From the IMG/VR virus record IMGVR_UViG_3300029711_000003, positions 32,001 to 96,000 of that record: a stretch of DNA of 64,000 nt. One strand, given 5' to 3'. Below the pieces are notes generated by a model. The model saw nothing but the letters and a program-made list of their open reading frames with translations, was not told the origin of the DNA and ran no database searches. The DNA comes from a virus. Of this stretch, positions 1,642-63,358 are shown piece by piece (the first letter of the stretch is position 1; each line of letters opens with the position of its first letter). Made by a program: the position numbers and the translations under genes.

Positions 1642-3138
1642 ATGGAATATCTAACTTTATATCATCATGACTCTTCTGTTAAAACATTAGCAGAATATAT
1701 GGAGGCAGAGCATATCCCAACCAGTGTCATTTCCGTTGATGAGCTGTTTGATTATAATAGGGATATGATTTTCAATCAGATGTCTTTGAACGAGAAAGCT
1801 GAATATGCTAAGCAGAAAGGTAAGGATTCAATTACATCTAATGACCTTACAAGCGATATGACTTTGCCTTGTCCTTGTACTCTTAAAATTCAGGCTAAGA
1901 ACGTAACTTATGAGCTTGCTATTTCTCAAACAAATTTTGAAGCTCAAACCGATAACATCTATGCTTTTGAAAATCAGCAGATACAAAACATACTTCAAAA
2001 CGAAGGATACAATATTGACCGTAGTACGAAGAAACTCAATCCAGAGTGTTCGGTTTGGGGTTGGTTCAAGTCCTTATATTATGTTGGCGCATTAGACAAT
2101 ATGAACGCTTTGGGCACTATTCGTAGTAATACCAATAAATTTGTAGATATATCGGACTTTATTGTAAATATGACTACAAATGTTTCATTGTCGGGTGGTT
2201 CTTTTTCTATTACATTGCCTATTATAAATTCCATTCAGCAATTGTTAAAGATAGAGCCTTATTCTGATACCAATAACTCATTGATGAAGATTTTCACATA
2301 TACGGATAGACGTGCTGAGCAAATAGACCTATACCAATATGGTAAACAATTCTTTCATAAAGGCGGTATTGTTGCCATGGAACATAATTACTTCAATTGG
2401 CTTATTCAGTCTAATGACCTTTTGTTCATTTCTTTTGAAAAATTAGAGCTTGAGAAGTCATTGGGTAGTAATGTCTTTGATATGATAGGTTTGGTTGATA
2501 ACGTCAGTGTTTATCAAGATGCTAATGGTAATGGTAATGTAACTGTAAGCGGACGGGATTTGATGAAGCTGTTAACAGATGATAGCTCATTATTTTTCAA
2601 TACTTCTACTGTTTGGGGAGAAAGTCAGATTTTTGCTAATACTGAGAGTATGGGTAAGCAAGGTGATATTCGCAATGCTGATATGAGCGGAAATAAATAT
2701 AACACTCCTATAAACAGACTTCGCAGATTGACAAACGAAATAGACGTTTTTGCTACTCCATTCAATCGTTCACTGGACTTCATTATGAAGGGTGTTATTT
2801 CTCAGCTTGCTAATATAGAGGTGGTTCCTGATTATGTGTTTGAAGATTGGGGAGATAGGCGAACAAGATTTTCTGAACTTTATCCTGACGTTTCTTCTAA
2901 TACTCAAGGAACGGCAAACGGAGCAAGTTCGGGTAGTGGACAATCAGATAGTAGTTCATCTGATGAAGTTCCTAATAACGATGCTTTCAGAACTAATATG
3001 CCTAATGTAAATGAGGATAAGTATGAGCCAATAACTGGCGGTGATAATGGAGCAAGAAATTCAGACACTCCGTCAGTTCCGAGATTGAACGAAGGAATGA
3101 CGTATTTGGGTGATGGTATGTATGTTAAAATAAAGTAA
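1642..3138 (+). CDS. virion structural protein (tail/baseplate module), function unknown
   Basis: 498-aa ORF starting 1 nt after the previous stop. Ser/Gly/Asn-rich low-complexity C-terminus. Functional call rests on position only. Confidence 0.55.
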   Translation: MEYLTLYHHDSSVKTLAEYMEAEHIPTSVISVDELFDYNRDMIFNQMSLNEKAEYAKQKGKDSITSNDLTSDMTLPCPCTLKIQAKNVTYELAISQTNFEAQTDNIYAFENQQIQNILQNEGYNIDRSTKKLNPECSVWGWFKSLYYVGALDNMNALGTIRSNTNKFVDISDFIVNMTTNVSLSGGSFSITLPIINSIQQLLKIEPYSDTNNSLMKIFTYTDRRAEQIDLYQYGKQFFHKGGIVAMEHNYFNWLIQSNDLLFISFEKLELEKSLGSNVFDMIGLVDNVSVYQDANGNGNVTVSGRDLMKLLTDDSSLFFNTSTVWGESQIFANTESMGKQGDIRNADMSGNKYNTPINRLRRLTNEIDVFATPFNRSLDFIMKGVISQLANIEVVPDYVFEDWGDRRTRFSELYPDVSSNTQGTANGASSGSGQSDSSSSDEVPNNDAFRTNMPNVNEDKYEPITGGDNGARNSDTPSVPRLNEGMTYLGDGMYVKIK

Positions 3139-25033: not shown

Positions 25034-26233
25034 ATGGCAACAAAATTGAATCCAGCAACTGCTAAGAAAGTGAAGGCATTGGGTATTAATGCTAAATCAG
25101 AAGAAGATGCACGTGAGAAACTGCTTGAAATCCTGAAGGACAACGGCATTGACGGCATGGAAGAGGAAGACACCGAAACTCTTATTGACATTGCCGAGAG
25201 CTATGTTGAGGAAGGCGGTGAAAATGAATCAGAAGAGCAAGAGGCAGAAGAGCTTGCTAATGAAGCTGAGGAAGAGGAAACTGAAGAAGAAAAGCCGAAG
25301 GCAAAGGTCAAGAAAGCTCCTGCTAAGGATGACGATGAAGAAGAGGAAGAAGAAACTGAAGAAGAGCCTGAAGAGGAAGAAACTGAAGAAGGTGATGAGT
25401 TTGACGAAATGGACAGAACGGAGTTGAAATCCTATATCAAGAAGAATGGGCTGGAAATTACTGTCAAGAAGTCTATGACTGATGACGACATCCGTGACCT
25501 CATTCGTGAAGCAGTAAATGATGAAGAGGAAGAAACGGAGGAAGCAGAAGAGGAAGCTCCAGCATCGAAAGAAAAGGCTGCTAAGAAAGCTGAAACGAAA
25601 GCTCCTGAGAAGCCTGCGAAGAAGAAAGAGGAAAAGAAAGAAACTAAGTCAAAACCTGCCGGCAAGCGTGGTACTAAACTTGACCCGAAGAACAACGAAG
25701 ATGACCGCAAGGCATTTGCTCCTTTGAAAAAGCTGTTCCCTGAAGATGAGTTCAACTATGCTTGGGTAGCAAGCGCAGGAGTTACAATCAAACATAAGGG
25801 TACAAACTCCAACCGTTCTATGGTTCTGATTGAGAACTGTTCTCAGATGCCCGATGGTTCTATCAAGTGTAACTTGTATCTGCTTACTTTCAACAAGCAG
25901 CTTGAAGTTCTTGATGAAGCAGGTATTGAGTACGAAAAGTGCTGGAGCGGTGCACCGCTTATCAAGGGCATAACTCTTGATGAGGCAATCGAAATCATCA
26001 AAGGCTTGCTTGACAACATTCTGTCTTCTGTAAAGAAAATCGACAAGAAGCTGGGAGAAAACCGCAAAAAGATGGAGGAAAATCTGAACAAGAAAGCTCC
26101 GAAGAAAGCGGCAAAGCCTGCTAAGGATGATGACGATGAAGAAGAGGAAGAAACTGAGGAAGAAGAAACGCCGAAGGCAAAACCTGCCTCAAAGAAGGCT
26201 GTAGCAACAAAGAAAACTACAAAGAAAAAGTAA
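25034..26233 (+). CDS. highly charged protein: poly-Glu tracts, HeH/SAP-like motif, globular C-domain, Lys-rich tail
   Basis: 399-aa ORF with long E/D runs and the motif DRTELKSYIKKNGLEITVKKSMTDDDIRDLI. The C-terminus KKAVATKKTTKKK is H1-like. The gene has its own terminator. Confidence 0.6.
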   Translation: MATKLNPATAKKVKALGINAKSEEDAREKLLEILKDNGIDGMEEEDTETLIDIAESYVEEGGENESEEQEAEELANEAEEEETEEEKPKAKVKKAPAKDDDEEEEEETEEEPEEEETEEGDEFDEMDRTELKSYIKKNGLEITVKKSMTDDDIRDLIREAVNDEEEETEEAEEEAPASKEKAAKKAETKAPEKPAKKKEEKKETKSKPAGKRGTKLDPKNNEDDRKAFAPLKKLFPEDEFNYAWVASAGVTIKHKGTNSNRSMVLIENCSQMPDGSIKCNLYLLTFNKQLEVLDEAGIEYEKCWSGAPLIKGITLDEAIEIIKGLLDNILSSVKKIDKKLGENRKKMEENLNKKAPKKAAKPAKDDDDEEEEETEEEETPKAKPASKKAVATKKTTKKK

Positions 26234-26268
26234 TTTGCGTAACTGCATAAATGATAGATAGAGATTGG

Positions 26269-26305
26269 AAGGAGCTGCTTGAGAAAGTGGCTCCTTTTTC
26301 TTTTT
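26269..26305 (+). terminator. intrinsic terminator (homologous to the one at 42527)
   Basis: AAGGAGC (26269-26275) pairs with GCTCCTT (26290-26296). The loop contains GCTTGAGAAAGT, and TTTTTCTTTTT follows. Confidence 0.75.
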
Positions 26306-26353: not shown

Positions 26354-27553
26354 ATGGAAAATATTGATTTCAAAAATGTGTTTATTCCGCCACTTGGCGT
26401 AATTTCAACTTCACAATTCAGTGAGATGTATCCTGTGGTTAATGACTATATTCTCAATGAAATGAAGTTTGAGGATAGCAGGGATGGAAAGGTAAAGGAA
26501 ATGCTTGATATTAAAACAATGTTAAGCAATCCGTATCGTAGATGCGTAGGCGGTTATCGAAGAAACATAAATGTGTTCTTTTTGCTTGCTGAAGCTATGT
26601 GGATTGTTTTAGGCAGGAAAGATGTTGAGACATTAGTCAATTTCAATAACAATATGAAAAACTTTTCCGATGATGGTGAAACATTTCACGCTCCTTATGG
26701 TTTTCGTTTGCGCCATTGGGGTATAAGGACAGAGGATAAGTTTGAGGAAGGAGTTAATACTGCTCAAGGTTCAGACCAAGTTTTGAATGCTATCAAACTT
26801 TTGACGGAAAATCCTAACACCCGTCAAGTTGTTATGTCTATTTGGAATCCAAACTTTGATTTAGGATTCAAAACAAAAGACATACCTTGTAATGATATGG
26901 TGATGTTAAAGATAAGGAACGGAAAGCTGATAACAACGGTTCAAAATCGTAGCAACGACTTGCATTGGGGTTTGCCTACGAACATATTCCAGTTCTCATT
27001 CCTCACCGAAGTTATGGCGGCTTGTTTAGGTATAGAGCTTGGCACTCAAACTCATAATTCTCAGAGCCTACATATATATGAGTGGAATGATGTTGCTAAT
27101 GTTATGGATGAAGAATATAAGAAAATCGGAAACGGTTTTGATTTGTATCATTGGGCTCATGAGAAGCATATGGATTTCAACTTCAATCACGAAGTTCCTG
27201 CTAACCGTTTCCGTGAGATTGAATACAATTTTTCGGTTATTATCGAAAATCTGAATAAAGTTGCTAAGGGAGAGAGTGAGAACAACGATGAAATCCAAGC
27301 ATTAGCAATGTTTTCTAATTATCTGTATAACTCTTATCTGTTATTGAAGATTTATTTGGATTACAAGCATGATATTAAGTCTGCTAAGACGGATGAGGAA
27401 AAGGATGTTGCCCGTTTGAAGGCAATTTCAGATATTGAATTGATAGAAATTGAGAACAAGTTACAAGGATGGGACATTTCAGTTCTTGCTAAGAATTTCT
27501 TTGCCGCAAGGTTACACAATAAGGTAGAACATGAATACATTGGTAAGTTATGA
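26354..27553 (+). CDS. thymidylate synthase (ThyA)-fold enzyme, candidate deoxypyrimidine (dUMP) hydroxymethylase or divergent TS, with ~110-aa C-terminal extension
   Basis: ThyA-family blocks: HAPYGFRLRHWG, NPNTRQVVMSIWNP, catalytic Cys in IPCNDMV, NRSNDLHWGLPTNIFQF, and SLHIY. Confidence 0.7.
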   Translation: MENIDFKNVFIPPLGVISTSQFSEMYPVVNDYILNEMKFEDSRDGKVKEMLDIKTMLSNPYRRCVGGYRRNINVFFLLAEAMWIVLGRKDVETLVNFNNNMKNFSDDGETFHAPYGFRLRHWGIRTEDKFEEGVNTAQGSDQVLNAIKLLTENPNTRQVVMSIWNPNFDLGFKTKDIPCNDMVMLKIRNGKLITTVQNRSNDLHWGLPTNIFQFSFLTEVMAACLGIELGTQTHNSQSLHIYEWNDVANVMDEEYKKIGNGFDLYHWAHEKHMDFNFNHEVPANRFREIEYNFSVIIENLNKVAKGESENNDEIQALAMFSNYLYNSYLLLKIYLDYKHDIKSAKTDEEKDVARLKAISDIELIEIENKLQGWDISVLAKNFFAARLHNKVEHEYIGKL

Positions 27554-30500
27554 CAAAAAGTCTATCTGAATGGATTGAAAACAACAAACTTTCGGTATCG
27601 GAGTCAAAAATCAATGACTCCGATATTGTAAGTATTGAAGGTGTTGGAACATTCCTTTATGTACATCCGTTTGACGGTAAGATAATTGATGAAGATTTTG
27701 CTTTCATATTATCGGATGAAGAGTTTGATTTGCTTGATGAAAAGAAAGTAGATTACATATTGTTTGAGTTCGGTAAGAAATTCTATTATTCCAGTCCTAA
27801 ACAATCGAAGAACAGATACAACGAAATCATTTACAAACCTGAGTTCAATGATTTCAAGTATTTGGGTACAACGAAAGAAACAACAGAAGATATATTTCCA
27901 TTTGTTCACCTTGGAGTTCATTCCGAGTATGAAATGTTGAATGGTTCGGGAGCCTGTGAGTTGTGGGCTAAGAAAGCTGCCTTTATGAAAGTTAAGGCTT
28001 TGGGCATATGTGATAAAAATACTATGGCTGGAGTTCTTTCATTTCAGACCGCTTGTGAAAAGAAAGGGGTGAAGTCAATAATAGGTGAAACCGTAACTGT
28101 AGCAATAGATTATTCCGAAGAAAAACAAAACCAAGAAACATTTGAATTAAAGCTATATGTTTTGAATTATGAGGGGTGGAAAAATCTGTTGCTTATCAAT
28201 AAAGCTATAAATGTTGACTATGATGGTTTTATTCCTGATACGTTACTTTATACGCTGGGAAAGGGCTTATGCTGCGTAGTGCCCAAAGAGAGTGAATTCA
28301 ACTACATTAAGGATGATAAGGTGAAAGTGTTAAAACTTATAGCCAAATACAAAAAGACGTTTGACCAAGTCTATTATCAAATTGATACGGTTGAATATAC
28401 TTCTCAACAATTATTCCGTAAGCACTTGGAAAACATTGATACTTATATAATGAAATACAAAAGGTTCATCAAGCCTATCTTAATCAATGATTCATATTAT
28501 CTTGATGCCGAAGAAGGTGGATTGAAATCTTTGTTGAATAAGGTATCGGGAAAGGCTGCGCCTGAATCAAACAATCAATTCTTCAAGAGCTTTATGGATA
28601 CCTTGGAATCATATAAGGAATGGGGAGAGGTATCGGAGCTATGGGACATTATTTTATCAGGAAGACATTATGCTGAAAAGCTCACAGATAAAATTGATTT
28701 CCGCATAAATACTGGAGAACGTAAGTTGCCTCATTTTGAGGTTAAGGATGTTGAAGGACTGTTCTTTCAGGAGCTTGAACGTGGAATAAACGAGCGTTTG
28801 GGAGATTTGCCTCCAAAGAAGATGAAAGAATATCTCAAGCAGATAGAAACCGAGTGCGCTGTTATAGTTCCTAATGGTTTGTGCGATTATTTTATGATAC
28901 TTTGGGACATCATAAAGTGGTGTCATGATAATGATATAAACACTGGTCCAGGACGTGGTTCAGTTTGCGGTAGTCTTATAGCGTACTGTTTACATATAAC
29001 AGACGTTGACCCATTGAAGTATGGATTGATGTTTGAGCGTTTCTTGAATGAAACACGTGTATCGGGAGAGCGAGCGAAAAGTGCGGACAGTATGCCTGAT
29101 ATAGATGTTGATTTTCCAACAGAGTTCCGTGATGCTGTTAAAGAGTACATCAAAGAAAAGTATGGTTATGCTTACACTTGTAGTATTGGTACATATACGA
29201 GAATGAAGCTCAAAACTTGTATCAAGGACTTCGGAAAGGTTAAGGGATTGTCATTTGATTTGACAAATAAATTGACTAAGGATATAGATGACCAAATAGA
29301 ATACACTTGGGGAGATTTGATTGAATATGCAAGCAAGTCGAAACTTCTTTTCAAGTTTGTTCAGGAAAATCCTGAATTGGTTCATATGACCAAATATGCA
29401 CTTCTTCAGCCGAAAGCTGAAAGCGTACACCCGTCAGCCGTTATTATCGTACCTAAACATGCTGTGGACGGTACGAACAGAGAAATGGACTTGTGGGAGT
29501 GGATGCCTGTAAAGAAAATTGATGGTGTATTGGTATCTGAATGGGAAGGAAAGTACATTGATAAGTCAGGTTTTTTGAAAGAGGATATTCTTGGACTTTC
29601 TCAGCTTGATAAGTTTAAGAGTATTTTGAAACTTATTGAAAATAATTGTCACAAGAAAATAGATGTTAACAAGATACCGCTGGACGATGAAGCGACATTC
29701 CGATATTTCAAACGTGGTTGGAATGAAGATGTATTTCAGTTCGGTACGACTGGGTTGATGAATTATTGTCGTCAAGTTAAGCCTGATAGTTTGGAAAACC
29801 TTATAGCCATGACTGCTTTGTTCAGACCTGGACCCATGGAGCTTAATGCGCATCAAGACTTTGCTGATATTAAGAACGGAAAGAAGAAACCTGTGTATGA
29901 CTTTGGTATGGAAGATATAACCAAAGAAACTTATGGACTTTATGTGTATCAAGAGCAGGTTATGCAAGCCGTAGTTGTCGGAGGTTTGACGAAGGTTGAA
30001 TCAGACGTTCTCCGTACTACGATTAAGAAGAAGGATGTGAAAACACTGGCTTCATTTGGCGATAAGTTTAAGGATGGATATGCTAAACTTTTGTCAAAGA
30101 ATGGTATCAAAAATCCTGAAGAGTATGCTAATCACGTATGGTATAAGCTGCTTGCCTTTTCAGGGTATGGTTTTAACAAATCACACGCTGCCGCTTATTC
30201 TATAATGTCTTATTGGAGCCAATGGTTTAAGGTTAATTATCCGTTGGAATTTTGGACAACTGCTCTTCAATTCTCCAAAGAGGGAGAAGTGCCATACCGT
30301 TTAGCTGAGTTGAAAAAGACAGGAGCTGAAATTGAGATACGTCCACCTGATGTTAATTTCTCCGATATAAATTTCACTTGCGATGCGAAAGAACAGCGCA
30401 TCTTCTTCAGCCTGACGAAAATTAAGGGAGTAGGAGAAGTGGCGGTGAAGAATATAATGGATACAAGGCACGCAGGTGGGCAGTTCTATTCGTTGGAAGA

Positions 30501-31101
30501 GTTCCTCAGCCGAGTACCCAGTAAGGTAAACAAAACTGTTGTAAAATGCTTAATAGTAGCTGGAGCGTTTGACCTGATAGAAGGTGTTAACAATCCGAGA
30601 GATAGAAAGAAGCTGCTGGAGAAGTATTTGGAAAGCAAGAATGAAAGTTTACCAGAAGAATACTCAGGAGCGGATAGCAATTCCAACGCATTTTGGATTT
30701 TGGAACAAAAACGTCTTACTGGGTTTGGAGAAGTAGATTATGAAACCATGATACGTGATGCCATTCCTAACAAGCGTTTGTCTAAGTTGTATGTCAATGA
30801 TAGCGAGTTCCTTGATACTAAGGAAAAAACGGAAGTTGTTATTGCCGGCAAACTTATATTCTATCGTGAGCGTGATATTAAGAACGGAAAGGTGTGTACT
30901 ATTCAGATAGACTGTAATAATACTATTTTGAACGCCATTCTTTGGCCAGACGCATACGAGAAGATTGATGAGGATATAGCTAATTTGAAGGGTTGTATCG
31001 TAGCTTTGAGCGGTACGGTTGAAAAAGACCGATATAGGAATGAAAAAAACTTGTATAGTAACAATAAAACAAAGTTATATGTTATATCAGAATCAAAATA
31101 A
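27550..31101 (+). CDS. dnaE: DNA polymerase III alpha subunit (DnaE-type, C-family replicase)
   Basis: PHP motif VHLGVHSEYEMLNGS. Other family blocks: GPGRGSVCGSLIAYCLHITDVDP, MPDIDVDF, FRPGPM and FNKSHAAAYS. C-terminal OB-fold-like segment. The first ~115 aa precede the PHP domain. Confidence 0.95.
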   Translation: MTKSLSEWIENNKLSVSESKINDSDIVSIEGVGTFLYVHPFDGKIIDEDFAFILSDEEFDLLDEKKVDYILFEFGKKFYYSSPKQSKNRYNEIIYKPEFNDFKYLGTTKETTEDIFPFVHLGVHSEYEMLNGSGACELWAKKAAFMKVKALGICDKNTMAGVLSFQTACEKKGVKSIIGETVTVAIDYSEEKQNQETFELKLYVLNYEGWKNLLLINKAINVDYDGFIPDTLLYTLGKGLCCVVPKESEFNYIKDDKVKVLKLIAKYKKTFDQVYYQIDTVEYTSQQLFRKHLENIDTYIMKYKRFIKPILINDSYYLDAEEGGLKSLLNKVSGKAAPESNNQFFKSFMDTLESYKEWGEVSELWDIILSGRHYAEKLTDKIDFRINTGERKLPHFEVKDVEGLFFQELERGINERLGDLPPKKMKEYLKQIETECAVIVPNGLCDYFMILWDIIKWCHDNDINTGPGRGSVCGSLIAYCLHITDVDPLKYGLMFERFLNETRVSGERAKSADSMPDIDVDFPTEFRDAVKEYIKEKYGYAYTCSIGTYTRMKLKTCIKDFGKVKGLSFDLTNKLTKDIDDQIEYTWGDLIEYASKSKLLFKFVQENPELVHMTKYALLQPKAESVHPSAVIIVPKHAVDGTNREMDLWEWMPVKKIDGVLVSEWEGKYIDKSGFLKEDILGLSQLDKFKSILKLIENNCHKKIDVNKIPLDDEATFRYFKRGWNEDVFQFGTTGLMNYCRQVKPDSLENLIAMTALFRPGPMELNAHQDFADIKNGKKKPVYDFGMEDITKETYGLYVYQEQVMQAVVVGGLTKVESDVLRTTIKKKDVKTLASFGDKFKDGYAKLLSKNGIKNPEEYANHVWYKLLAFSGYGFNKSHAAAYSIMSYWSQWFKVNYPLEFWTTALQFSKEGEVPYRLAELKKTGAEIEIRPPDVNFSDINFTCDAKEQRIFFSLTKIKGVGEVAVKNIMDTRHAGGQFYSLEEFLSRVPSKVNKTVVKCLIVAGAFDLIEGVNNPRDRKKLLEKYLESKNESLPEEYSGADSNSNAFWILEQKRLTGFGEVDYETMIRDAIPNKRLSKLYVNDSEFLDTKEKTEVVIAGKLIFYRERDIKNGKVCTIQIDCNNTILNAILWPDAYEKIDEDIANLKGCIVALSGTVEKDRYRNEKNLYSNNKTKLYVISESK

Positions 31102-31151
31102 TATGAAACAGGAAGAAGAAATAATTGTTGTTTTCCCTTGGACAATTTTTA

Positions 31152-31766
31152 ATGTTAAAAGTCATGATAAAGGAATTTGTTAATAAAATTGTATCTTTGG
31201 ACAACGTTCATCAATGGGCAGAACGTGATAGCGTTATCAAAGAAACCGTATCGCAACATTCATTTAAGGTTGCATCATTTGCCATCTTCATTCTTGATAG
31301 ATTGGAAAATGAAAATTGTAATGTAATTGGTAAAGGAAATCAAGATTGGATTGAGTTCCGAAAGAATTGCGTTGAGTATGCTGTTTTACACGACTTTGAT
31401 GAAGCAATACTTGGACGTGATATCAGTCATGTCGTTAAGTATAATAAACATAATGGCGACAAAATCAGAAAGGATATTGATGACTATGTCAATTATGAAA
31501 TTGAACGTCTTGGATTAAATCTGATTAAGGATGAAATAAATCCTAATGTTAAGACGTTTGTGAAATTCTGCGATTGGCTTGCTATGATGTCTTTTATTTA
31601 TCGTAACAAATCAATGGGAGTGCGAACATTCGGTAATGAGAGAATGTATTGCCAAGATAAAGCAACAGAAAGCAGTGTGGTAGTTCAATCTATGTTGAAC
31701 AAAGTTTTCCATATTGAAAGTTTCAAATGTTTGGTAGAAATACTTAATGACTATATTTATGAATGA
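31152..31766 (+). CDS. HD-domain phosphohydrolase (YfbR-like 5'-deoxynucleotidase)
   Basis: ETVSQHSFKVA followed by AVLHDFDEAILGRDISH, which is the H...HD...D metal-binding pattern. Start chosen at the first ATG, at 31152. The listed 31125 start uses an alternative codon. Confidence 0.6.
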   Translation: MLKVMIKEFVNKIVSLDNVHQWAERDSVIKETVSQHSFKVASFAIFILDRLENENCNVIGKGNQDWIEFRKNCVEYAVLHDFDEAILGRDISHVVKYNKHNGDKIRKDIDDYVNYEIERLGLNLIKDEINPNVKTFVKFCDWLAMMSFIYRNKSMGVRTFGNERMYCQDKATESSVVVQSMLNKVFHIESFKCLVEILNDYIYE

Positions 31767-57593: not shown

Positions 57594-60377
57594 ATGTTTG
57601 ATTTAGATACAATAGAACAAAAAGATAAGAAGCTGGTAAGCATTCTTCAGTCGCCAACTCATCAATTGGAATGTCTTTCAATAGTTGACGAGATAATTGA
57701 TAGCATGGATGACAAAGGCATACTTGAACTAATGTCTGGTTCGGACGGAGATTTGGACTATATTTTAGATTGTATGTTGAAGGATACATTCCAAGTAATG
57801 TACACTGGCAATCCTCATATTGATTTTGCTCCGAGATATACTGATAGGTTATCTCAAGCAGTAGAAGAAATATTGAGGTGCAAGAATTTGACATACTTCA
57901 TTACTTCGGTAATGCCCGATTTTCAGTTGTCTTGGCATCATTTGGAATGGGGAGATTTGGTTCACCGATATAAAAAGTTGTGCATAGAAGCTGCCCGTGA
58001 CCACGGCAAGTGCGAAGCAGTTGGAACAAAGGTAAGAATGTATGACGGCTCCATTAAGAAAGTTGAAGATTTGATAATTGGAGATTTGCTAATGGGAGTT
58101 GATTCAAAGCCAAGAAAGATTATTCATCTTCATAGAGGCGTTGATGACAATATGTTTAGAATTGACCAAAGTAAAGGTGATAGTTATACAGTCAATTCTA
58201 AACATATTTGTACCGTCATTAAAATAGGTAAGAGAGGAAAGAATTTGACAGAACACGAAAAGAATATTGTTGATATTGACATTCCAACTCTTTTATCTTA
58301 TTCAAAGAACTTTCTTTCAGAACGCATACGTGGTTTTAAGGTCGCTTGGGAAGCTCCTGAAAGAAAAGTATTGATTGAACCTTATTTCTTGGGGTATTGG
58401 TTAGGCGATGGAAATTCAAATAATCAAAAAATAACTATTGAAGATGTAGAGGTTGTTCGGTATTTAGAAGAATATGCTGAAAGACTTGGTATGACAACTT
58501 CAAGAAAAGGATTGTTGTCTAACATTAGGAGAAAAATAATATCTTGTAAAACCAAAAACAAGTTAAACATGTTTTTGAAAGCATATAACTTGATATATAA
58601 CAAACATATTCCTAATGTTTACATACATAATTCAAGAAAAGTTCGTTTGGAATTGTTAGCTGGACTTTTAGATTCAGATGGAGATTTATGGTGCAATGGT
58701 TATCATTTTGGCAATATAAATAAAAGATTGGTTGAGGATGTAAAAAATCTTGCTGATAGTTTGGGTTTCAGAACTTATATGTCAGGCGGTAGAAAGTACC
58801 ATAAACAACTGAAGAGAATGTATGATTGGTGGGGAGTTTCTATTTCAGGAAAGATTGATGAAATACCTGTAAAAATACCAAGAAAAAAGATTGAATATAA
58901 TTGGGGAAATAAGGCTTCAAATAAAGATTGGGGAGTCATAGATGGAATAGCACCAAGTGTCGTGTCTTCTATAAAAATAACAAATGTTGGTAAAGGAGAA
59001 TATGTTTCAATTACCACTGATGGAGACCATAGATTTTTGCTTGCTGATGGTACAGTTACTCATAATTCTTACTATTTCTCCAATGCTTATGCCGCTTGGC
59101 AATTGTATAAGTATGCTAAGCCGAAGGGTACTCAATTTTCAGCAAGACCTACAAAGTCAAATTCAAACCGTGGATATTTGTTCAGTTTCTCTTTGCAACA
59201 ATCCGTTGACCTTATGGAGATATTGAAAAACACGATTGAAAGTAATGATATATTGAAAGAACGTCTGTACCCTGATTCCAAAGATAAGAGCGGAGCGTGG
59301 GCAAGTACGAATATAGTATGTAAGAACGGAGCGAGATTGACGTGTAAGGGATTTGGGTCATCAGTACGTGGTGCTCACCCATATTGGATAGTAGTAGATG
59401 ATGGATTGAAAGATAACGTCATCTACAGTCAATTACAGAGGCAGAAAAGCATTGATTATTTCCATTCGGTAATTATGAACATGCTTGTACCAGGTGGTCA
59501 AATAATTGTAGTTGGCACTCCTTTCCATGCTTCAGACTTATACGGAGATTTGAAAAGCAAAAGCATACATGCTACTGGTAATAAGAAAGGATGGTTTGTA
59601 ATTGAATATCCTGCTATCTTTCCTGACGGTCGCATTCTTTGGCCACAACGTTGGAGTTTCTTTGACCTTATGGACAAGAAAGCTACGCAAGGAAACATCA
59701 TTTTCAGTAGGGAAAATCTTTGTCGTCCAATCACCAATGAAAGTTCTATCTTTCCGCTCAAGGTTTTGGAGCGTTCTTTGGTACGTATGGAGAATTATGT
59801 TCTTGTTCGCAATAGGGATGACTTTCCGATTAAGTTCAACAAAGTTGTCGTTGGATGTGACTTTGCTATTTCTGCAAATGTTGGTACAGACTACACTGTG
59901 TTTACGGTTTGGGGAGTTGACGATGAAACTGGAGAGCGTTGGTTGTTGCATTTCTATCGGGATAAAGGAAAGACGTTTCACGAGCAGATGCAAGTATTGA
60001 AAGGCATAAATGTGAGATTCAGACCTGATACAATGATTTTGGAACAAAACACGTTCCAACAGATATTCGTACAAGAAAGTGATAAACAGGGGCTGCCAGT
60101 TATAGGACATACCACTGGTATAGATAAGTATGATTTGAAGACAGGCTGGCCTGGACTTGCCATAGATTTTGAACGTGGCAAAATACATATACCGATTGGA
60201 GATAAGTATTCACAAGACGTGAAAGACCTTATTTTCTCAGACCTTGGTTCGGTAGCATTTACCGATAAGGGATTGGAGAGCGTAGGAGAACACGATGATA
60301 TCAGTTCTTCTTTCTGGCTTGCTAAGTTAGGAGCTAACTTGATTACCACAGGATTCAAGTACACTTTCCTGGGTTAA
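57594..60377 (+). CDS. terL: terminase large subunit, interrupted by an intein in the Walker A P-loop
   Basis: The exteins join as AARDHGK|SYYFSNAY, which restores a Walker A. Walker B is YWIVVDDGL. The C-terminal part is RNase-H-like nuclease (VVGCDFAIS...). An SD-like AGGAGG lies upstream. Confidence 0.9.
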   Translation: MFDLDTIEQKDKKLVSILQSPTHQLECLSIVDEIIDSMDDKGILELMSGSDGDLDYILDCMLKDTFQVMYTGNPHIDFAPRYTDRLSQAVEEILRCKNLTYFITSVMPDFQLSWHHLEWGDLVHRYKKLCIEAARDHGKCEAVGTKVRMYDGSIKKVEDLIIGDLLMGVDSKPRKIIHLHRGVDDNMFRIDQSKGDSYTVNSKHICTVIKIGKRGKNLTEHEKNIVDIDIPTLLSYSKNFLSERIRGFKVAWEAPERKVLIEPYFLGYWLGDGNSNNQKITIEDVEVVRYLEEYAERLGMTTSRKGLLSNIRRKIISCKTKNKLNMFLKAYNLIYNKHIPNVYIHNSRKVRLELLAGLLDSDGDLWCNGYHFGNINKRLVEDVKNLADSLGFRTYMSGGRKYHKQLKRMYDWWGVSISGKIDEIPVKIPRKKIEYNWGNKASNKDWGVIDGIAPSVVSSIKITNVGKGEYVSITTDGDHRFLLADGTVTHNSYYFSNAYAAWQLYKYAKPKGTQFSARPTKSNSNRGYLFSFSLQQSVDLMEILKNTIESNDILKERLYPDSKDKSGAWASTNIVCKNGARLTCKGFGSSVRGAHPYWIVVDDGLKDNVIYSQLQRQKSIDYFHSVIMNMLVPGGQIIVVGTPFHASDLYGDLKSKSIHATGNKKGWFVIEYPAIFPDGRILWPQRWSFFDLMDKKATQGNIIFSRENLCRPITNESSIFPLKVLERSLVRMENYVLVRNRDDFPIKFNKVVVGCDFAISANVGTDYTVFTVWGVDDETGERWLLHFYRDKGKTFHEQMQVLKGINVRFRPDTMILEQNTFQQIFVQESDKQGLPVIGHTTGIDKYDLKTGWPGLAIDFERGKIHIPIGDKYSQDVKDLIFSDLGSVAFTDKGLESVGEHDDISSSFWLAKLGANLITTGFKYTFLG
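58011..59066 (+). mobile_element. intein (352 aa) with LAGLIDADG homing endonuclease domain
   Basis: It starts with Cys (CEAVGTKVRMYDG...) and ends with THN, followed by Ser (+1 residue). Block B is NSKH. The two LAGLIDADG motifs are YFLGYWLGDGNS and LLAGLLDSDGDL. The length is a multiple of 3. Confidence 0.9.
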
Positions 60378-60418: not shown

Positions 60419-60868
60419 ATGAAAAAAAGACAAGTAAACATTATCCTGAAAGGATATGGAAAATTGCCCGTATATGCTACGGAGCATTCAGCAGGAGCAG
60501 ACTTGTATTCTGCTAATGCTGTTAACATTATCATTTATCCCAATGAGCGCAAACTCATTCCTACTGGCGTTTATATAGAATTGCCTGAAGATGCTGAAGG
60601 ATGTATAAGACCGAGAAGCGGATTGAGTTTGAAAAAAGGACTTGTAGCAATAATTGGAACAATTGATGCTGATTATCAAGGAGAAGTTGGTATCATTCTA
60701 CATAACACAAGCGATACGACTTGGACTATTGAACGTGGAGAACGTCTTGCTCAGATAGTATTTAATGGCGATGGCGGTCTGTTCCAAGCAGAATGGAATA
60801 GAGTTTCAGAATTCACCCGAAGTAGCGAGAGAGCTGATGGTGGTTTTGGTCACACAGGAGTAAAGTGA
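60419..60868 (+). CDS. dut: dUTP diphosphatase (trimeric dUTPase)
   Basis: All five dUTPase motifs are present: AGADLYS, RSGLSLKKG, GTIDADYQGEVG, RLAQIV and GGFGHTG. Confidence 0.95.
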   Translation: MKKRQVNIILKGYGKLPVYATEHSAGADLYSANAVNIIIYPNERKLIPTGVYIELPEDAEGCIRPRSGLSLKKGLVAIIGTIDADYQGEVGIILHNTSDTTWTIERGERLAQIVFNGDGGLFQAEWNRVSEFTRSSERADGGFGHTGVK

Positions 60869-60869
60869 T

Positions 60870-61433
60870 ATGAAAAGTTTTGCACTTAAAAAGCCTTTGA
60901 CCAAAAATCAGGTAGATGATTTGACAGAAGCGTTGGTGAATACTATGCGCTATTCTGACCCAAATGTTGAATATCCGAGTTTTGACGAGGCTAAAAGTGA
61001 TGATGGGGTAATAGCTGAATGGTTTTACCCCATTTTCAATGGTACAAATGATTTCTCCGAGCTTACTGCTATACATATGTACATTACTCAGGAAGCTACG
61101 TTTGAGGAAGTTGGAGAGTTGTTATTGGGCATTGCTATGACTGAAATGAAACATTATGATAAGTTGGCTGATTTTATTCGTAAGATAGGAGGAAAGATTG
61201 ACCAGCGTTTCAACAATTCAGGTGTAACAATAGGTAAGAATTCAGAAGAAGCTATCAAAATTGCTATCGGAGCAGAAGAGAAAACAATTGACTTCTATGA
61301 AAAATTACAAGAGAAGCTGATAAAACTTGATGAGACACCTACTATCCGCATAGCATTACAATTACTTGCTAAGTTGATAGCTGATGAAGTGGTTCATTTG
61401 AAATTATTAAAAGAACGAATAAAGAAAGATTGA
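60870..61433 (+). CDS. ferritin-like di-metal carboxylate protein (Mn-catalase/CotJC-like fold)
   Basis: Two E...ExxH pairs: QEATFEE..MTEMKHYDKL and GAEEKT..ADEVVHLKLL. The N-terminal SELTAIHMYITQ resembles the Mn-catalase/CotJC family. Confidence 0.6.
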   Translation: MKSFALKKPLTKNQVDDLTEALVNTMRYSDPNVEYPSFDEAKSDDGVIAEWFYPIFNGTNDFSELTAIHMYITQEATFEEVGELLLGIAMTEMKHYDKLADFIRKIGGKIDQRFNNSGVTIGKNSEEAIKIAIGAEEKTIDFYEKLQEKLIKLDETPTIRIALQLLAKLIADEVVHLKLLKERIKKD

Positions 61434-61435
61434 CA

Positions 61436-63358
61436 ATGAAAAAAGACGGTATTGATTTGTTAGCTGATTATGTATTTCTTTCAAAGTATTCTCAGCGAAA
61501 TTCAGAAGGAAGGCTGGAGCATTGGCATGAAACAATTGAACGTATTTATGCGATGCACGAAGTTAAGTTGAACAAACTTGGACTTTGTAATATCGGTGTA
61601 CAAGAAATGATACATAAGGCTATGGCGATGGAGAATGATAAGAAAATTCTTTCATCGCAGCGTGGAAGACAATTTGCATCACCAGTAGAAACAAGCGGTA
61701 TTTTGAAGCATGAAGCAAAACTTTACAATTGTTGTTCTACTTATATAGACCGTATCGAAGTATTCAGCGAAATAATGTATCTTTTGCTTTGCGGTTGCGG
61801 TGTCGGATATTCCTTGCATAAGGAGTATATTGATAAACTGCCTGTGGTTAAGAAGCAAATTGGTGAATTTGTTACTTATAAAATAGAAGATAGCATTGAA
61901 GGTTGGGGTGATTCCATAAAATGGCTCATGGAAAATATGTTTGAAGGCAGAGACACACGTATGGACTTCACCGCTATCCGTCCAGAGGGAGCTTTGATTG
62001 ATGGAAAGTTTGTAGCACCTGGCCCTGAGCCTTTGATAAAAGCTCATGAAAATATCAAGAAAGTAATGCTTGGAGCTCAAGGACGCAAGCTCACCAGTAT
62101 TGAAATTCACGACATTATTTGTTTTATAGCTAATAGCGTTGTGAGCGGTGGTGTAAGACGTTCTGCTATGATTGCTTTATTTGATAAGGATGATGACTTG
62201 ATGCTCCGAGCTAAGACAGGAAGCTGGTGGACAGAAAATCCTCAAAGAGCTATGGCAAACAATTCTATTCTTACAAGTGACAAAGACCGTTTGTCATACA
62301 AAGAAATGAAAGAGAAGCTGCAAGTGATACGGCAATTCGGAGAGCCAGGAGTTGTAAATGCAGCTGATTATAGTTACACTGTCAATCCTTGCGGTGAAAT
62401 AGTAATGAAACCGAGTATTGATGGTCGTACAGGTTTTGCTTTTTGTAATCTTGTTGAAATAAATGCAGAGAGAGTAAGGACAGAAAAGGAATTTTATGAA
62501 GCATGCGAGGTTGCTTCATTCGTTGCTACACTTCAATCACTTTATACTGACTTCAAATATCTATCCGCTGCATCACGAGAGATAGCTGAGCGTGATAGAG
62601 CTATTGGAGTAAGCATTACAGGCATATATGCCAATCCTATTCTTCAGGGTGAAGTCCTTAAAGCAGGTGCTAAGATAGTGGCAGAAACAAACTCCAAATG
62701 GGCAGAAGCATTTGGAATAAATCGAAGTCGTACTTGCACTACAATTAAACCGAGCGGAAATGCTTCATCAATTCTTGGCTTGTATTGCAGCGGCATTCAT
62801 CCAGCTCATGCTATGAAGTATTTGCGCCGTGTGCGTATTAAGACTTACAGTCCAGAGTTCATTGCTTTGAAGGACACTCCTATGGTTAAAGTACTGAGAG
62901 GCGATGAGGCTGTTATCAGCTTTCCTATCGAAGTTAAGAGCGGATGGATTGTTTGCAAGGATAGTGTATCAGCCGTTGAGCATTTGAAGTTCATTGGTAT
63001 GGTTAAGCACTATTGGATTAACAAGGGTAGCATTGAGAAGAAAGCAATATCAAACAATATATCCGCTACAGTAGAAGTTCGTGATGATGAATGGGACGAA
63101 GTAGCAGCAGTATTGTTTACTAATGACTATTTGTTCACTGGAGTAAGTTTGTTGCCTAAATTGGGTGACCAAATATACGACAATGCACCGTTCCAACGTT
63201 TATCTTCAAAAGAGGTTAAAAAAGAATTCAATGATATCAAAAAGTATCTTGAAGACAATGAAGTAGATTTCAACGTTATTATGAGTAACCGAGATAACAT
63301 TTATTCAGGCGATATGGTTGCCGTTGGATGTTCAGGAGGTTCATGTGAATTGAAATAA
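61436..63358 (+). CDS. ribonucleotide reductase catalytic (alpha-type) subunit, probably class II (B12-dependent)
   Basis: RNR blocks: GCGVGYSL, FTAIRPEGALI, GGVRRSAMIALF, active-site NPCGEI, TIKPSGNASS, and a C-terminal redox Cys pair GCSGGSCELK. No ATP cone. At 640 aa it is too short for a typical class I alpha subunit. Confidence 0.85.
   Translation: MKKDGIDLLADYVFLSKYSQRNSEGRLEHWHETIERIYAMHEVKLNKLGLCNIGVQEMIHKAMAMENDKKILSSQRGRQFASPVETSGILKHEAKLYNCCSTYIDRIEVFSEIMYLLLCGCGVGYSLHKEYIDKLPVVKKQIGEFVTYKIEDSIEGWGDSIKWLMENMFEGRDTRMDFTAIRPEGALIDGKFVAPGPEPLIKAHENIKKVMLGAQGRKLTSIEIHDIICFIANSVVSGGVRRSAMIALFDKDDDLMLRAKTGSWWTENPQRAMANNSILTSDKDRLSYKEMKEKLQVIRQFGEPGVVNAADYSYTVNPCGEIVMKPSIDGRTGFAFCNLVEINAERVRTEKEFYEACEVASFVATLQSLYTDFKYLSAASREIAERDRAIGVSITGIYANPILQGEVLKAGAKIVAETNSKWAEAFGINRSRTCTTIKPSGNASSILGLYCSGIHPAHAMKYLRRVRIKTYSPEFIALKDTPMVKVLRGDEAVISFPIEVKSGWIVCKDSVSAVEHLKFIGMVKHYWINKGSIEKKAISNNISATVEVRDDEWDEVAAVLFTNDYLFTGVSLLPKLGDQIYDNAPFQRLSSKEVKKEFNDIKKYLEDNEVDFNVIMSNRDNIYSGDMVAVGCSGGSCELK

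What the first reader, a model, noticed from the sequence alone, without database searches (positions are those of the whole stretch)
26354..27553. Thymidylate-synthase-fold enzyme with hydroxymethylase-like features: candidate dUMP hydroxymethylase (thymine replacement or hypermodification)
The protein has the ThyA-fold core (catalytic Cys in IPCND, SIWNP, YGFRLRHW). It departs from canonical ThyA in several places:
- There is no His after the catalytic Cys (PCH becomes PCN).
- It has NRSND where ThyA has QRSCD.
- It has SLHIY where ThyA has GDTHLY.
- It has a ~110-aa C-terminal extension.

As I recall the T4 gp42 dCMP hydroxymethylase sequence, it has MRSND and GSLHVY at these positions. That places this protein nearer the hydroxymethylase clade. 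The base-specificity position reads PTNIFQF, with Asn as in dUMP-specific enzymes rather than the Asp of dCMP hydroxymethylase. That would point to 5-hydroxymethyl-dUMP.

The gene is translationally coupled (ATGA) to the DnaE-type polymerase gene.
Basis: partly seen in the sequence, partly recalled or inferred. Interest (0 to 1): 0.65.

Follow-up and report, generated by a model that had tools for sequence, protein, structure and literature searches.

The report
Phage dUMP hydroxymethylase, not thymidylate synthase
This gene in an uncultured 100-kb phage almost certainly makes 5-hydroxymethyl-dUMP rather than thymidylate, so the phage and its many relatives probably build their DNA with hydroxymethyluracil (or a derivative) in place of thymine.

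Summary
It is the only ThyA-family gene in a complete 100.5-kb phage genome.

Several results place it with dUMP hydroxymethylases rather than thymidylate synthases:
- Its nearest named relatives are SPO1 gp29, SP-10 and SP8 (about 40% identity), then M6.
- A profile of seven proteins from phages with known 5-hmdU-derived DNA scores 242 bits. A profile of nine canonical synthases scores 90 bits.
- All NCBIfam thymidylate-synthase equivalog models fall far below their cut-offs.
- It carries the published hydroxymethylase signature, an Asp three residues before the catalytic Cys (D176; Leu in synthases).
- It keeps Asn210 (uracil-specific) and Ser200 (deoxyribose-specific).
- It lacks the synthase Trp80/Trp83 pair and C-terminal tail. 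In their place it has a five-helix C-terminal domain like that of MilA, its best structural match.

Context agrees. The gene overlaps a DnaE polymerase gene (ATGA). It sits near a YfbR-like HD nucleotidase (as in M6) and a dUTPase. The genome has no ThyX, DHFR or dCMP deaminase. All 23 near-complete relatives carry the HD protein and a PF18723 protein, and none has a detectable 5-hmdU DNA kinase.

Verdict: first reading supported; a new member of a known enzyme kind. Enzyme activity and virion DNA chemistry remain untested.

The parts
26267..26298 (+). Terminator-like hairpin with T tail. It closes the upstream gene and marks the start of the hydroxymethylase-polymerase transcription unit.
   Evidence: (14-pair stem, 5 GC pairs, T-rich tail). 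No + strand terminator-like site was found between 26354 and 32200.
26354..27553 (+). Predicted dUMP hydroxymethylase (ThyA-fold, 399 aa).
   Evidence: (phrog_5131, 2.5e-72).
26663..26677 (+). FSDDG motif (residues 104-108). It replaces the ThyA segment W80-D-E-W83-A-D. It is shared with all seven reference dUMP hydroxymethylases, and MilA has a related form (YSADG).
26879..26893 (+). DIPCN. D176 is the hydroxymethylase-signature Asp at Cys-3 (Leu143 in E. coli ThyA, D145 in T4 dCMP hydroxymethylase). C179 is the catalytic nucleophile. N180 stands in place of ThyA His147.
   Evidence: signature defined in PMC6400193.
26945..26986 (+). NRSNDLHWGLPTNI. R199, S200 and D202 correspond to ThyA R166, S167 and D169. 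S200 indicates a deoxyribose substrate. N210 corresponds to ThyA N177 and indicates uracil specificity.
   Evidence: PMC5175136.
27092..27550 (+). C-terminal all-helical domain (residues about 247-399; helices 247-258, 282-304, 311-320, 322-343, 347-368, 374-384). It stands in place of the ThyA C-terminal tail.
   Evidence: pLDDT 94.8, pTM 0.93. (alignment to MilA spans 343-368 columns, against about 280 for synthases). (MilA has a five-helix C-terminal domain).
27550..31101 (+). DnaE-type DNA polymerase III alpha (1183 aa), start overlapping the hydroxymethylase stop (ATGA).
31125..31766 (+). YfbR-like HD-domain 5'-deoxynucleotidase homologue (213 aa). Candidate thymidine-nucleotide-depleting enzyme. 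It belongs to the same Pfam family as M6 gp59, which sits next to the M6 hydroxymethylase.
   Evidence: PF12917, 3.2e-11; phrog_7076; M6 gp59, PF12917, 1.1e-8; present in 23 of 23 relatives. The substrate is inferred, not shown.
60419..60868 (+). Trimeric-type dUTPase (149 aa). It would supply dUMP and remove dUTP.
   Evidence: phrog_135, 2e-48; PF00692, 1e-27.

Best explanation
**What the enzyme does**
- The gene encodes a dUMP hydroxymethylase (deoxyuridylate hydroxymethyltransferase).
- Like thymidylate synthase, it would attack C6 of dUMP with Cys179, take the one-carbon unit from 5,10-methylene-tetrahydrofolate, and form the exocyclic C5-methylene intermediate.
- The active site has Asp176 where synthases have Leu143. 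It also lacks the Trp80/Trp83 shield and the C-terminal tail that seal the synthase active site.
- As a result, a water molecule rather than a hydride from the folate would add to the methylene carbon. The products would be 5-hydroxymethyl-dUMP and tetrahydrofolate.
- Asn210 and Ser200 set the substrate as a uracil deoxyribonucleotide.

**Inferred pathway**
- The phage dUTPase supplies dUMP.
- Host kinases take 5-hmdUMP to the triphosphate.
- The co-transcribed DnaE polymerase incorporates it opposite A.
- The YfbR-like HD hydrolase plausibly depletes thymidine nucleotides.
- After replication, the PF18723 protein (genome 941-2053, outside the window), with the FkbM methyltransferase next to it, may process 5-hmdU further by an unknown, apparently kinase-independent route.

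**Shown and inferred**
- Shown here: homology, residue signatures, predicted fold, gene context, and co-occurrence across relatives.
- Inferred: enzyme activity, nucleotide-pool remodelling, and the final DNA base.
For: **Nearest relatives**
- tblastn against 50,697 phage records puts SPO1 gp29, SP8, SP-10 ('dUMP hydroxymethylase'), Goe9/10 ('deoxyuridylate hydroxymethyltransferase') and M6 on top (37-45% identity, E 1e-33 to 1e-45).
- In the phage's own six-frame translation this is the only ThyA-family ORF. phmmer E-values are SPO1 gp29 3e-49, E. coli ThyA 9e-12 and T4 gp42 3e-4.

**Profiles that exclude the query's own subclade**
- Seven reference hydroxymethylases score 241.8 bits over query residues 16-342.
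- Nine canonical synthases score 90.1 bits over residues 76-251 only.

**Curated models**
- All eight NCBIfam thymidylate-synthase equivalogs score far below their cut-offs (best 76 against 174.6 bits).

**Trees**
- The canonical synthases form one group.
- A 66-row clade holds the query and all seven references (SH-aLRT 97, stem 1.2-1.8 substitutions per site).
- ViI and PhiW-14 branch first. The SPO1/SP10 plus M6/PaMx11 group is then sister to the query's 33-row metagenomic subclade.

**Signature residues**
- Asp at Cys-3 is present in the query, in all seven references, in T4 gp42, in MilA and in 110 of 116 metagenomic representatives; 105 of the 116 carry the full D..C-N pattern. Canonical synthases have Leu, Ile or Arg there.
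- In T4 dCMP hydroxymethylase this Asp activates the substrate water, and the D145N mutant is dead (PMC6400193).
- N210 and S200 are conserved.

**Structure**
- The AlphaFold model is confident (pLDDT 94.8).
- Its best PDB matches are the MilA CMP hydroxymethylase chains (E about 4e-17 to 2e-16, TMq 0.62-0.66). These rank ahead of all thymidylate synthases (TMq 0.46-0.54).

**Context**
- The gene lies directly upstream of the polymerase, as in SPO1, SP10 and M6.
- The same HD family is the hydroxymethylase's neighbour in M6.
- A dUTPase is present.
- ThyX, DHFR and dCMP deaminase are absent.
- PF18723 is present in the genome and in 23 of 23 near-complete relatives.
- PF18723 occurs in all six tested thymidine-hypermodifying phages but not in SPO1 or T4.
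Against: - No activity or DNA-composition data exist for this phage.
- Of the reference proteins, direct enzymology is cited only for SPO1 (Wilhelm and Ruger 1992, cited in PMC6400193). SH-Ab 15599 is supported by co-expression (PMC13458397). The other references are inferred from their phages' DNA chemistry.
- The Ser two residues before the catalytic-base Tyr, part of the T4 signature, is Ala113 here. It is Ala or Gly in all dUMP hydroxymethylases.
- No dCMP deaminase was found, and no dTTPase of the kind found in SH-Ab 15599. A Walker A motif scan of the ORFs turned up no small P-loop kinase that could serve as a dNMP kinase. Complete exclusion of thymine is therefore not assured.
- The root of the hydroxymethylase clade is not firmly fixed. 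A tree that forces the synthases next to the query pair costs 51 log-likelihood units but is not rejected at 0.05 (p-AU 0.07-0.09; treekit gave 0.55).
- GATC and CTAG are almost absent from the genome. This shows that the phage also relies on site avoidance, even at T-containing sites.
Confidence: 0.85

Rival explanations
1. It is a divergent but genuine thymidylate synthase that makes dTMP to boost thymidine supply during replication.
For: - Pfam PF00303 and four PHROG families labelled 'thymidylate synthase' match.
- All residues needed for the shared first half of the reaction are present.
- JGI annotates relatives as thymidylate synthase.
- Strong GATC/CTAG avoidance is what a phage with ordinary T might need.
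Against: - It scores below every NCBIfam equivalog cut-off.
- It has Asp, not Leu, at Cys-3. It has no Trp80, Trp83 or His147 and no C-terminal tail.
- It scores 152 bits better against the hydroxymethylase profile.
- It falls in a clade with all known dUMP hydroxymethylases.
- The 'thymidylate synthase' labels also cover SPO1 gp29 itself.
- The genome has no DHFR.
- It co-occurs in every relative with PF18723, a family tied to 5-hmdU chemistry.
Confidence: 0.07
2. The enzyme is a dUMP hydroxymethylase, but 5-hmdU is only a transient replication intermediate. It is converted back to thymine or to another base before packaging, so virion DNA carries little or no 5-hmdU.
For: - In SP10, PhiW-14, M6 and ViI, virion DNA contains no 5-hmdU. 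It is converted to a hypermodified base or to thymine (PMC8989533).
- PF18723 is in all six such phages and absent from SPO1, which keeps 5-hmdU.
- PF18723 is in this genome and in 23 of 23 relatives.
- An FkbM methyltransferase gene overlaps the PF18723 gene.
Against: - No 5-hmdU DNA kinase (PF18748) or amino-acid:DNA transferase (PF18724) was found here or in 23 relatives. The only characterised activation route is therefore missing.
- PF18748 does miss the known PhiW-14 kinase, so a divergent kinase cannot be excluded.
- The function of PF18723 proteins is unknown, and M6 gp55 was dispensable in vitro.
Confidence: 0.45
3. It hydroxymethylates a different nucleotide: dCMP as in T4 gp42, or CMP/UMP as in MilA.
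For: - It shares the Asp at Cys-3 and the lack of a synthase tail with gp42 and MilA.
- MilA is the best structural match.
Against: - The base-specificity residue is Asn210, as in dUMP enzymes. gp42 and MilA have Asp.
- Ser200 is kept, whereas ribose-preferring MilA has Ala.
- phmmer to gp42 gives only 3e-4.
- The tree puts gp42 outside the clade.
Confidence: 0.03

Closest known systems
Bacillus phage SPO1 gp29 and SP-10 gp188, dUMP hydroxymethylases (Herelleviridae)
   Same: - About 40% identity over residues 16-297 and similar length (383 and 382 aa).
- Shared motifs: FSDDG, APYG, KD.PCN, NRSND and SLH.Y.
- A helical C-terminal domain.
- The gene lies just upstream of the replicative polymerase.
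   Different: - The query belongs to a separate, wholly metagenomic subclade (33 of 76 tree rows).
- The host phage is a 100-kb DnaE-encoding phage, not a Herelleviridae myovirus.
- SPO1 lacks PF18723 and keeps 5-hmdU, whereas this genome has PF18723.
Pseudomonas phage M6 gp58 (with gp59 HD hydrolase and gp55 PF18723 protein), from the 5-NedU thymidine hypermodification system
   Same: - The same triad is present in both genomes: ThyA-like hydroxymethylase, YfbR-like HD protein (PF12917) and PF18723 protein.
- 36.7% identity.
   Different: - M6 also has the 5-hmdU DNA kinase gp54 (PF18748), the glycine:DNA transferase gp51 (PF18724), and PLP and radical-SAM enzymes. None was found here.
- In M6 the genes are clustered. 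Here the PF18723 gene lies about 43 kb away around the circle.
- Pairwise BLAST of the two HD proteins is not significant.
MilA, CMP 5-hydroxymethylase of Streptomyces rimofaciens (PDB 5B6D, 5JNH)
   Same: - Best structural match (TMq 0.62-0.66).
- Asp at Cys-3, a YSADG/FSDDG-type motif, and a five-helix C-terminal domain.
   Different: - MilA has Asp at the base-specificity site (cytosine) and Ala in place of Ser167 (ribose preference). The query has Asn210 and Ser200.
- 21% identity.
T4 gp42, dCMP hydroxymethylase (PDB 1B5E and the ternary complex of PMC6400193)
   Same: - Asp at Cys-3 (D145, the water activator), MRSND/NRSND and SLHVY/SLHIY.
- No synthase C-terminal tail.
   Different: - gp42 has Asp179 (cytosine), is 246 aa with no C-terminal helical domain, and has Ser94, which the query lacks.
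- Only a remote sequence match.
Canonical thymidylate synthase ThyA (E. coli, T4 td)
   Same: - Same fold and dimer-type core.
- Shared residues: E58, W61, Y94, R126/127, C146, R166, S167, D169, N177, H207 and Y209 equivalents are all present.
   Different: - Leu143 becomes Asp, His147 becomes Asn, Trp80 becomes Met and Trp83 becomes Phe.
- The C-terminal tail is replaced by a helical domain.
- About 20% identity, and below all equivalog cut-offs.

Membership tests
dUMP hydroxymethylase (SPO1 gp29 type) | ThyA fold with the catalytic Cys and the nucleotide- and folate-binding residues | tested here: met
   PF00303 at 4.4e-26. E80, W83, Y115, R157, C179, R199, S200, D202, H240 and Y242 are invariant in alignment A1. 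Model pLDDT is 94.8.
dUMP hydroxymethylase (SPO1 gp29 type) | Acidic residue three positions before the catalytic Cys (the water activator; Leu in synthases) | tested here: met
   D176 in DIPCN. The signature is defined in PMC6400193. It is present in all seven reference proteins and in MilA.
dUMP hydroxymethylase (SPO1 gp29 type) | Asn at the pyrimidine-specificity position (E. coli N177), indicating uracil rather than cytosine | tested here: met
   N210. T4 gp42 and MilA have Asp there.
dUMP hydroxymethylase (SPO1 gp29 type) | Ser at the E. coli S167 position, indicating a deoxyribonucleotide substrate | tested here: met
   S200 is invariant in 66 relatives. MilA has Ala (PMC5175136).
dUMP hydroxymethylase (SPO1 gp29 type) | Synthase C-terminal tail absent and helical C-terminal domain present | tested here: met
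dUMP hydroxymethylase (SPO1 gp29 type) | Closer in sequence and phylogeny to known hydroxymethylases than to synthases | tested here: met
   242 against 90 bits. 3e-49 against 9e-12. Clade with SH-aLRT 97, with the same topology in a thorough ML search. The root position within the clade is not firmly resolved (p-AU 0.07-0.09).
dUMP hydroxymethylase (SPO1 gp29 type) | Catalyses dUMP + CH2-THF + H2O to 5-hmdUMP + THF | not testable with these tools
   Needs an enzyme assay.
dUMP hydroxymethylase (SPO1 gp29 type) | Phage DNA contains 5-hmdU or a derivative | not testable with these tools
No isolate or nucleoside data were found in the literature.
Canonical thymidylate synthase ThyA (EC 2.1.1.45) | Reaches the curated equivalog score | tested here: not met
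   Eight NCBIfam equivalogs all fall below their cut-offs: 76.3 against 174.6, 70.9 against 327, and 61.4 against 108.4 for the best three.
Canonical thymidylate synthase ThyA (EC 2.1.1.45) | Hydrophobic sealing of the active site for hydride transfer (Leu143, Trp80, Trp83, C-terminal tail) | tested here: not met
   The query has D176, M101 and F104, and a helical domain instead of the tail.
dCMP hydroxymethylase (T4 gp42) | Asp at the specificity position (D179), plus Ser two residues before the catalytic-base Tyr | tested here: not met
   The query has N210 and A113.
SPO1-type full thymine-replacement pathway | Accessory enzymes: dCMP deaminase, dTTPase or dTMPase, dNMP kinase | tested here: inconclusive
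   dUTPase is present. An HD YfbR-like hydrolase is present, but its substrate is unknown. There is no dCMP deaminase. A Walker A motif scan of the ORFs turned up no small P-loop kinase. Host kinases are considered sufficient in SH-Ab 15599 (PMC13458397).
Thymidine hypermodification system (M6, ViI, SP10 type) | 5-hmdU DNA kinase (PF18748) plus amino-acid:DNA transferase (PF18724) | tested here: not met
   Neither was found in the complete genome. The kinase is in 0 of 23 relatives. The positive control found PF18748 in ViI, SP10, M6, Sonora and weakly PaMx11, but missed PhiW-14.
Thymidine hypermodification system (M6, ViI, SP10 type) | PF18723 (clade-1 aGPT-Pplase / HMUDK_hel) protein | tested here: met
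   Genome 941-2053, 1.6e-47. Present in 23 of 23 relatives and in 6 of 6 hypermodifying phages. Absent from SPO1 and T4.

The most novel reading that the evidence does not exclude
A whole lineage of abundant, uncultured phages of about 100 kb replaces thymine via this hydroxymethylase. Earlier notes of this scan call them gut Bacteroidales phages; I did not test that. In this reading, the lineage then converts 5-hmdU in DNA by a route that needs no 5-hmdU DNA kinase. It would use the uncharacterised PF18723 protein, and in this genome an FkbM methyltransferase as well. The product would be a thymine derivative not yet described, such as a methylated hydroxymethyl group, or the reaction would be the still-unassigned 5-hmdU-to-thymine conversion.
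Probability: 0.3. Interest if true: 0.8.

Novelty: new member of a known kind. Interest (0 to 1): 0.55.

Why it matters
- **Abundance.** If the call is right, modified thymine is a lineage-wide trait of a very common uncultured phage group. The protein search found 758 relatives, the best 120 at 61-99% identity, many on contigs of 94-103 kb.
- **Practical consequences.** A modified base would bias restriction-, ligation- and nanopore-based virome methods. It would also affect host-range and defence studies.
- **Annotation.** Public pipelines label these genes 'thymidylate synthase'. The residue set D-x-x-C-N, FSDDG, Asn210 and a helical C-terminus gives a simple rule to re-annotate them.
- **A test case.** The lineage combines hydroxymethylase, HD hydrolase and a PF18723 protein without a recognisable kinase. 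That makes it a clean natural system for finding out what PF18723 proteins do.

Tried and rejected
- **Near-identical DNA search.** A search of 20 kb of the window against 50,697 phage records found no match, so no cultured close relative was available.
- **HD proteins.** Pairwise BLAST of the HD protein against M6 gp59 was not significant (E 0.68). The link rests only on the shared Pfam family.
- **Topology tests.**
  - treekit's one-clade test for 'synthases plus query pair' gave p-AU 0.55, with the constrained tree slightly better.
  - My fast IQ-TREE searches rejected the constraint (p 0.02 and 0.002).
  - Thorough searches gave a difference of 51 log-likelihood units, p-AU 0.09 and 0.07.
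  - The constrained tree meets the constraint by moving the whole synthase clade onto the query's stem with a zero-length branch.
  - The test therefore measures uncertainty in the root, not membership. I do not use phylogenetic bracketing alone as proof.
- **Other ORFs.** Pfam and PHROG scans of some 45 other ORFs found no dCMP deaminase, dNMP kinase, DHFR, ThyX, PF18748, PF18724 or Nmad5-type partner.
- **Glycosyltransferase lead.** A weak GT4-like hit (genome 14442-15893, E 9e-4, below cut-off) was not pursued as a base glycosyltransferase.
- **Literature.** A search for modified DNA in gut Bacteroides phages of this type found nothing relevant.
- **Model coordinates.** They were not available in the Python box, so active-site distances were not measured.
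Full report
**Observation**

The window is bases 32001-96000 of a single 100,537-bp contig. The contig has a 99-bp terminal overlap, 37.6% G+C, and essentially all long ORFs on one strand. The genome tool classes it as a virus record with direct terminal repeats, 100% complete.

The ORF at 26354-27553 (+) starts with ATG and encodes 399 aa.
- DIPCN at residues 176-180
- SIWNP at 162-166
- YGFRLRHW at 115-122
- NRSND at 198-202
- SLHIY at 238-242
- PTNIFQF at 208-214

These were checked.

The stop codon overlaps the start of the next gene as ATGA. That gene is a DnaE-type Pol III alpha, with PHP, NTPase, finger and HhH domains. A terminator-like hairpin at 26267-26298 precedes the ORF, and no + strand terminator-like site follows before about 32200. 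The ORF therefore probably heads an operon with the polymerase and the next gene.

**Family placement by sequence**

- Pfam sees only the thymidylate-synthase core (PF00303, 4.4e-26, residues 74-243).
- All eight NCBIfam thymidylate-synthase equivalog models match but fall far below their curated cut-offs.
- The best PHROG is phrog_5131 (2.5e-72), labelled 'thymidylate synthase'. That label also covers SPO1 gp29.
- tblastn against the phage collection puts the hydroxymethyluracil phages on top: SPO1 gp29, SP8, SP-10 (annotated dUMP hydroxymethylase) and Goe9/10 (deoxyuridylate hydroxymethyltransferase). M6 and its relative Sonora follow. Identities are 34-45%.
- In the phage's own six-frame translation this is the only ThyA-family ORF. 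It scores 3e-49 to SPO1 gp29, 9e-12 to E. coli ThyA and 3e-4 to T4 gp42.
- I built two profiles that exclude the query's own subclade:
  - Seven proteins from phages with known 5-hmdU-derived DNA (SPO1, SP10, M6, Sonora, PaMx11, ViI, PhiW-14) score the query at 241.8 bits over residues 16-342.
  - Nine canonical synthases score it at 90.1 bits over residues 76-251.

**Phylogeny**

I built a 76-row tree containing the seven references, T4 gp42, nine canonical synthases and 58 metagenomic representatives.
- The synthases fall on one side and gp42 stands alone.
- A 66-row clade holds the query and all seven references (SH-aLRT 97, long stem).
- A thorough LG+G4 search reproduced this topology.
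- Inside the clade, ViI and PhiW-14 branch first. The SPO1/SP10 plus M6/PaMx11/Sonora group is then sister to a 33-row, purely metagenomic subclade that contains the query.

The root is not firmly fixed:
- Forcing the synthases next to the query pair costs 51 log-likelihood units but is not rejected at 0.05 (p-AU 0.09 and 0.07).
- Fast searches gave 0.02 and 0.002, and treekit gave 0.55.
- The constrained tree satisfies the constraint with a zero-length branch, by moving the whole synthase clade.
- The query is thus never inside the synthases, but strict bracketing by known hydroxymethylases is not proven.
- Every characterised member outside the synthases (gp42, MilA, SPO1 gp29) is a hydroxymethylase.

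**Mechanistic residues**

The ternary-complex study of T4 dCMP hydroxymethylase identifies an Asp three residues before the catalytic Cys (D145) as the activator of the substrate water.
- The D145N mutant is inactive.
- Synthases have Leu143 at this position, which props up Trp83 and keeps water out.
- The authors propose this Asp as the signature of hydroxymethylases (PMC6400193).

The query has D176 at that position. So do all seven references, gp42, MilA and 110 of 116 representatives; 105 of the 116 carry the full D..C-N pattern. The canonical synthases I fetched have Leu, Ile or Arg.

Other differences from the synthases:
- The synthase Trp80 and Trp83 are Met101 and Phe104 here, within the clade-wide FSDDG motif.
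- His147 is Asn180.
- The synthase C-terminal tail, which closes over the folate, is absent.

Substrate determinants:
- Asn210 matches E. coli N177 (uracil), where gp42 and MilA have Asp.
- Ser200 matches S167 (deoxyribose), where ribose-preferring MilA has Ala (PMC5175136).

One element of the T4 signature is not shared. The Ser two residues before the catalytic-base Tyr is Ala113 here, and it is Ala or Gly in all dUMP hydroxymethylases.

**Structure**

- An AlphaFold2 model from a 66-sequence alignment is confident throughout (pLDDT 94.8, pTM 0.93). The exception is a surface insert at residues 132-136.
- The last 150 residues form helices packed on the core.
- Foldseek against the PDB ranks the seven MilA CMP-hydroxymethylase chains first (E about 4e-17 to 2e-16, TMq 0.62-0.66, 343-368 aligned columns).
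- Thymidylate synthases rank lower (TMq 0.46-0.54, about 280 columns).
- MilA is described as having an extra five-helix C-terminal domain away from the active site.
- The 'extension' is therefore a shared trait of this hydroxymethylase branch. SPO1 gp29, SP10_188, M6 gp58, and the ViI and PhiW-14 proteins have it too.

**Context in the genome**

- Downstream of the polymerase lies a YfbR-like HD 5'-deoxynucleotidase homologue (31125-31766; PF12917, 3.2e-11).
- M6 gp59, the gene next to the M6 hydroxymethylase, belongs to the same Pfam family.
- A trimeric dUTPase sits at 60419-60868.
- The complete genome has no ThyX, DHFR or dCMP deaminase.
- Outside the window, genome 941-2053 encodes a PF18723 'HMUDK_hel' protein (1.6e-47). 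Its end overlaps the start of an FkbM-type methyltransferase gene (2050-3078).
- No P-loop 5-hmdU DNA kinase (PF18748) or amino-acid:DNA transferase (PF18724) was found.

**Context in relatives**

The protein has hundreds of relatives at 61-99% identity, many on contigs of 94-103 kb. It also has full-length relatives at 40-50% identity.

In 23 near-complete IMG/VR relatives (hydroxymethylase 51-72% identical):

| Family | Present in |
|---|---|
| PF18723 | 23 of 23 |
| YfbR-like HD protein (PF12917) | 23 of 23 |
| PF18748 (5-hmdU DNA kinase) | 0 of 23 |

Controls on named phages:
- PF18748 is found in ViI, SP10, M6 and Sonora, and weakly in PaMx11. It is not found in SPO1, as expected, and it misses the known PhiW-14 kinase.
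- PF18723 is in all six thymidine-hypermodifying phages and absent from SPO1 and T4.
- M6 gp55, the PF18723 protein, was not needed for the in-vitro reconstitution, and its role is unknown (PMC8989533).

**Interpretation**

- The enzyme call (dUMP hydroxymethylase) is well supported; I put it at 0.85.
- The fate of 5-hmdU is open.
- The SPO1-like reading, in which 5-hmdU stays, fits the missing kinase.
- The universal PF18723 partner fits the hypermodifying phages, which convert all 5-hmdU to a modified base or to thymine before packaging.
- Host kinases are thought sufficient to make 5-hmdUTP in another such phage (PMC13458397). The lack of a phage dNMP kinase is therefore not an objection.
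- The HD protein's role as a thymidine-nucleotide hydrolase is an inference from family and synteny only.

**Limits**

- There is no biochemical or DNA-composition evidence.
- The host assignment (gut Bacteroidales) comes only from earlier notes of this scan, and I did not test it.

Noticed in passing
whole genome (window 1-64000 included): There is extreme avoidance of short palindromes. Observed against expected counts are GATC 1/270, CTAG 2/146, CCGG 8/159, CGCG 5/72 and GGCC 17/109 (second-order Markov expectation). T-containing sites are among the most avoided, so any T modification does not replace site avoidance.
   Followed up: partly
homologues P0158 (685 aa), P0175 (716 aa), P0225 (751 aa): Some metagenomic homologues carry an insert of about 300 aa between KD.P and the catalytic Cys. 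The insert begins with Cys and ends in HN, and the catalytic Cys is the +1 residue. This is the layout of an intein sitting exactly at the active-site nucleophile.
   Followed up: partly
window 57594-60377 (+): A 927-aa ORF combines Hint and LAGLIDADG homing-endonuclease domains with a terminase RNaseH-like domain. It looks like an intein-interrupted terminase large subunit.
   Followed up: no
genome 941-3078 (outside the window, 29-31 kb before its start): A PF18723 'HMUDK_hel' protein (370 aa) has a gene whose end overlaps the start of an FkbM-type SAM methyltransferase gene (342 aa). No kinase partner is found anywhere in the genome.
   Followed up: partly
window 60870-63358 (+): A ferritin/rubrerythrin-like 187-aa protein is followed by a 642-aa protein with a weak match to the class II ribonucleotide reductase insertion domain. 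They lie directly after the dUTPase and may form a nucleotide-supply block.
   Followed up: no
genome 14442-15893 (outside the window): A 483-aa protein has a weak, below-cut-off match to glycosyltransferase family 4 at its N-terminus (E 9e-4). I did not establish whether it acts on DNA, the capsid or the host envelope.
   Followed up: no
window 25034-26233 (+): The gene just upstream encodes a 399-aa protein dominated by long Glu/Lys-rich acidic tracts, with no convincing family match. Its function is unknown.
   Followed up: no
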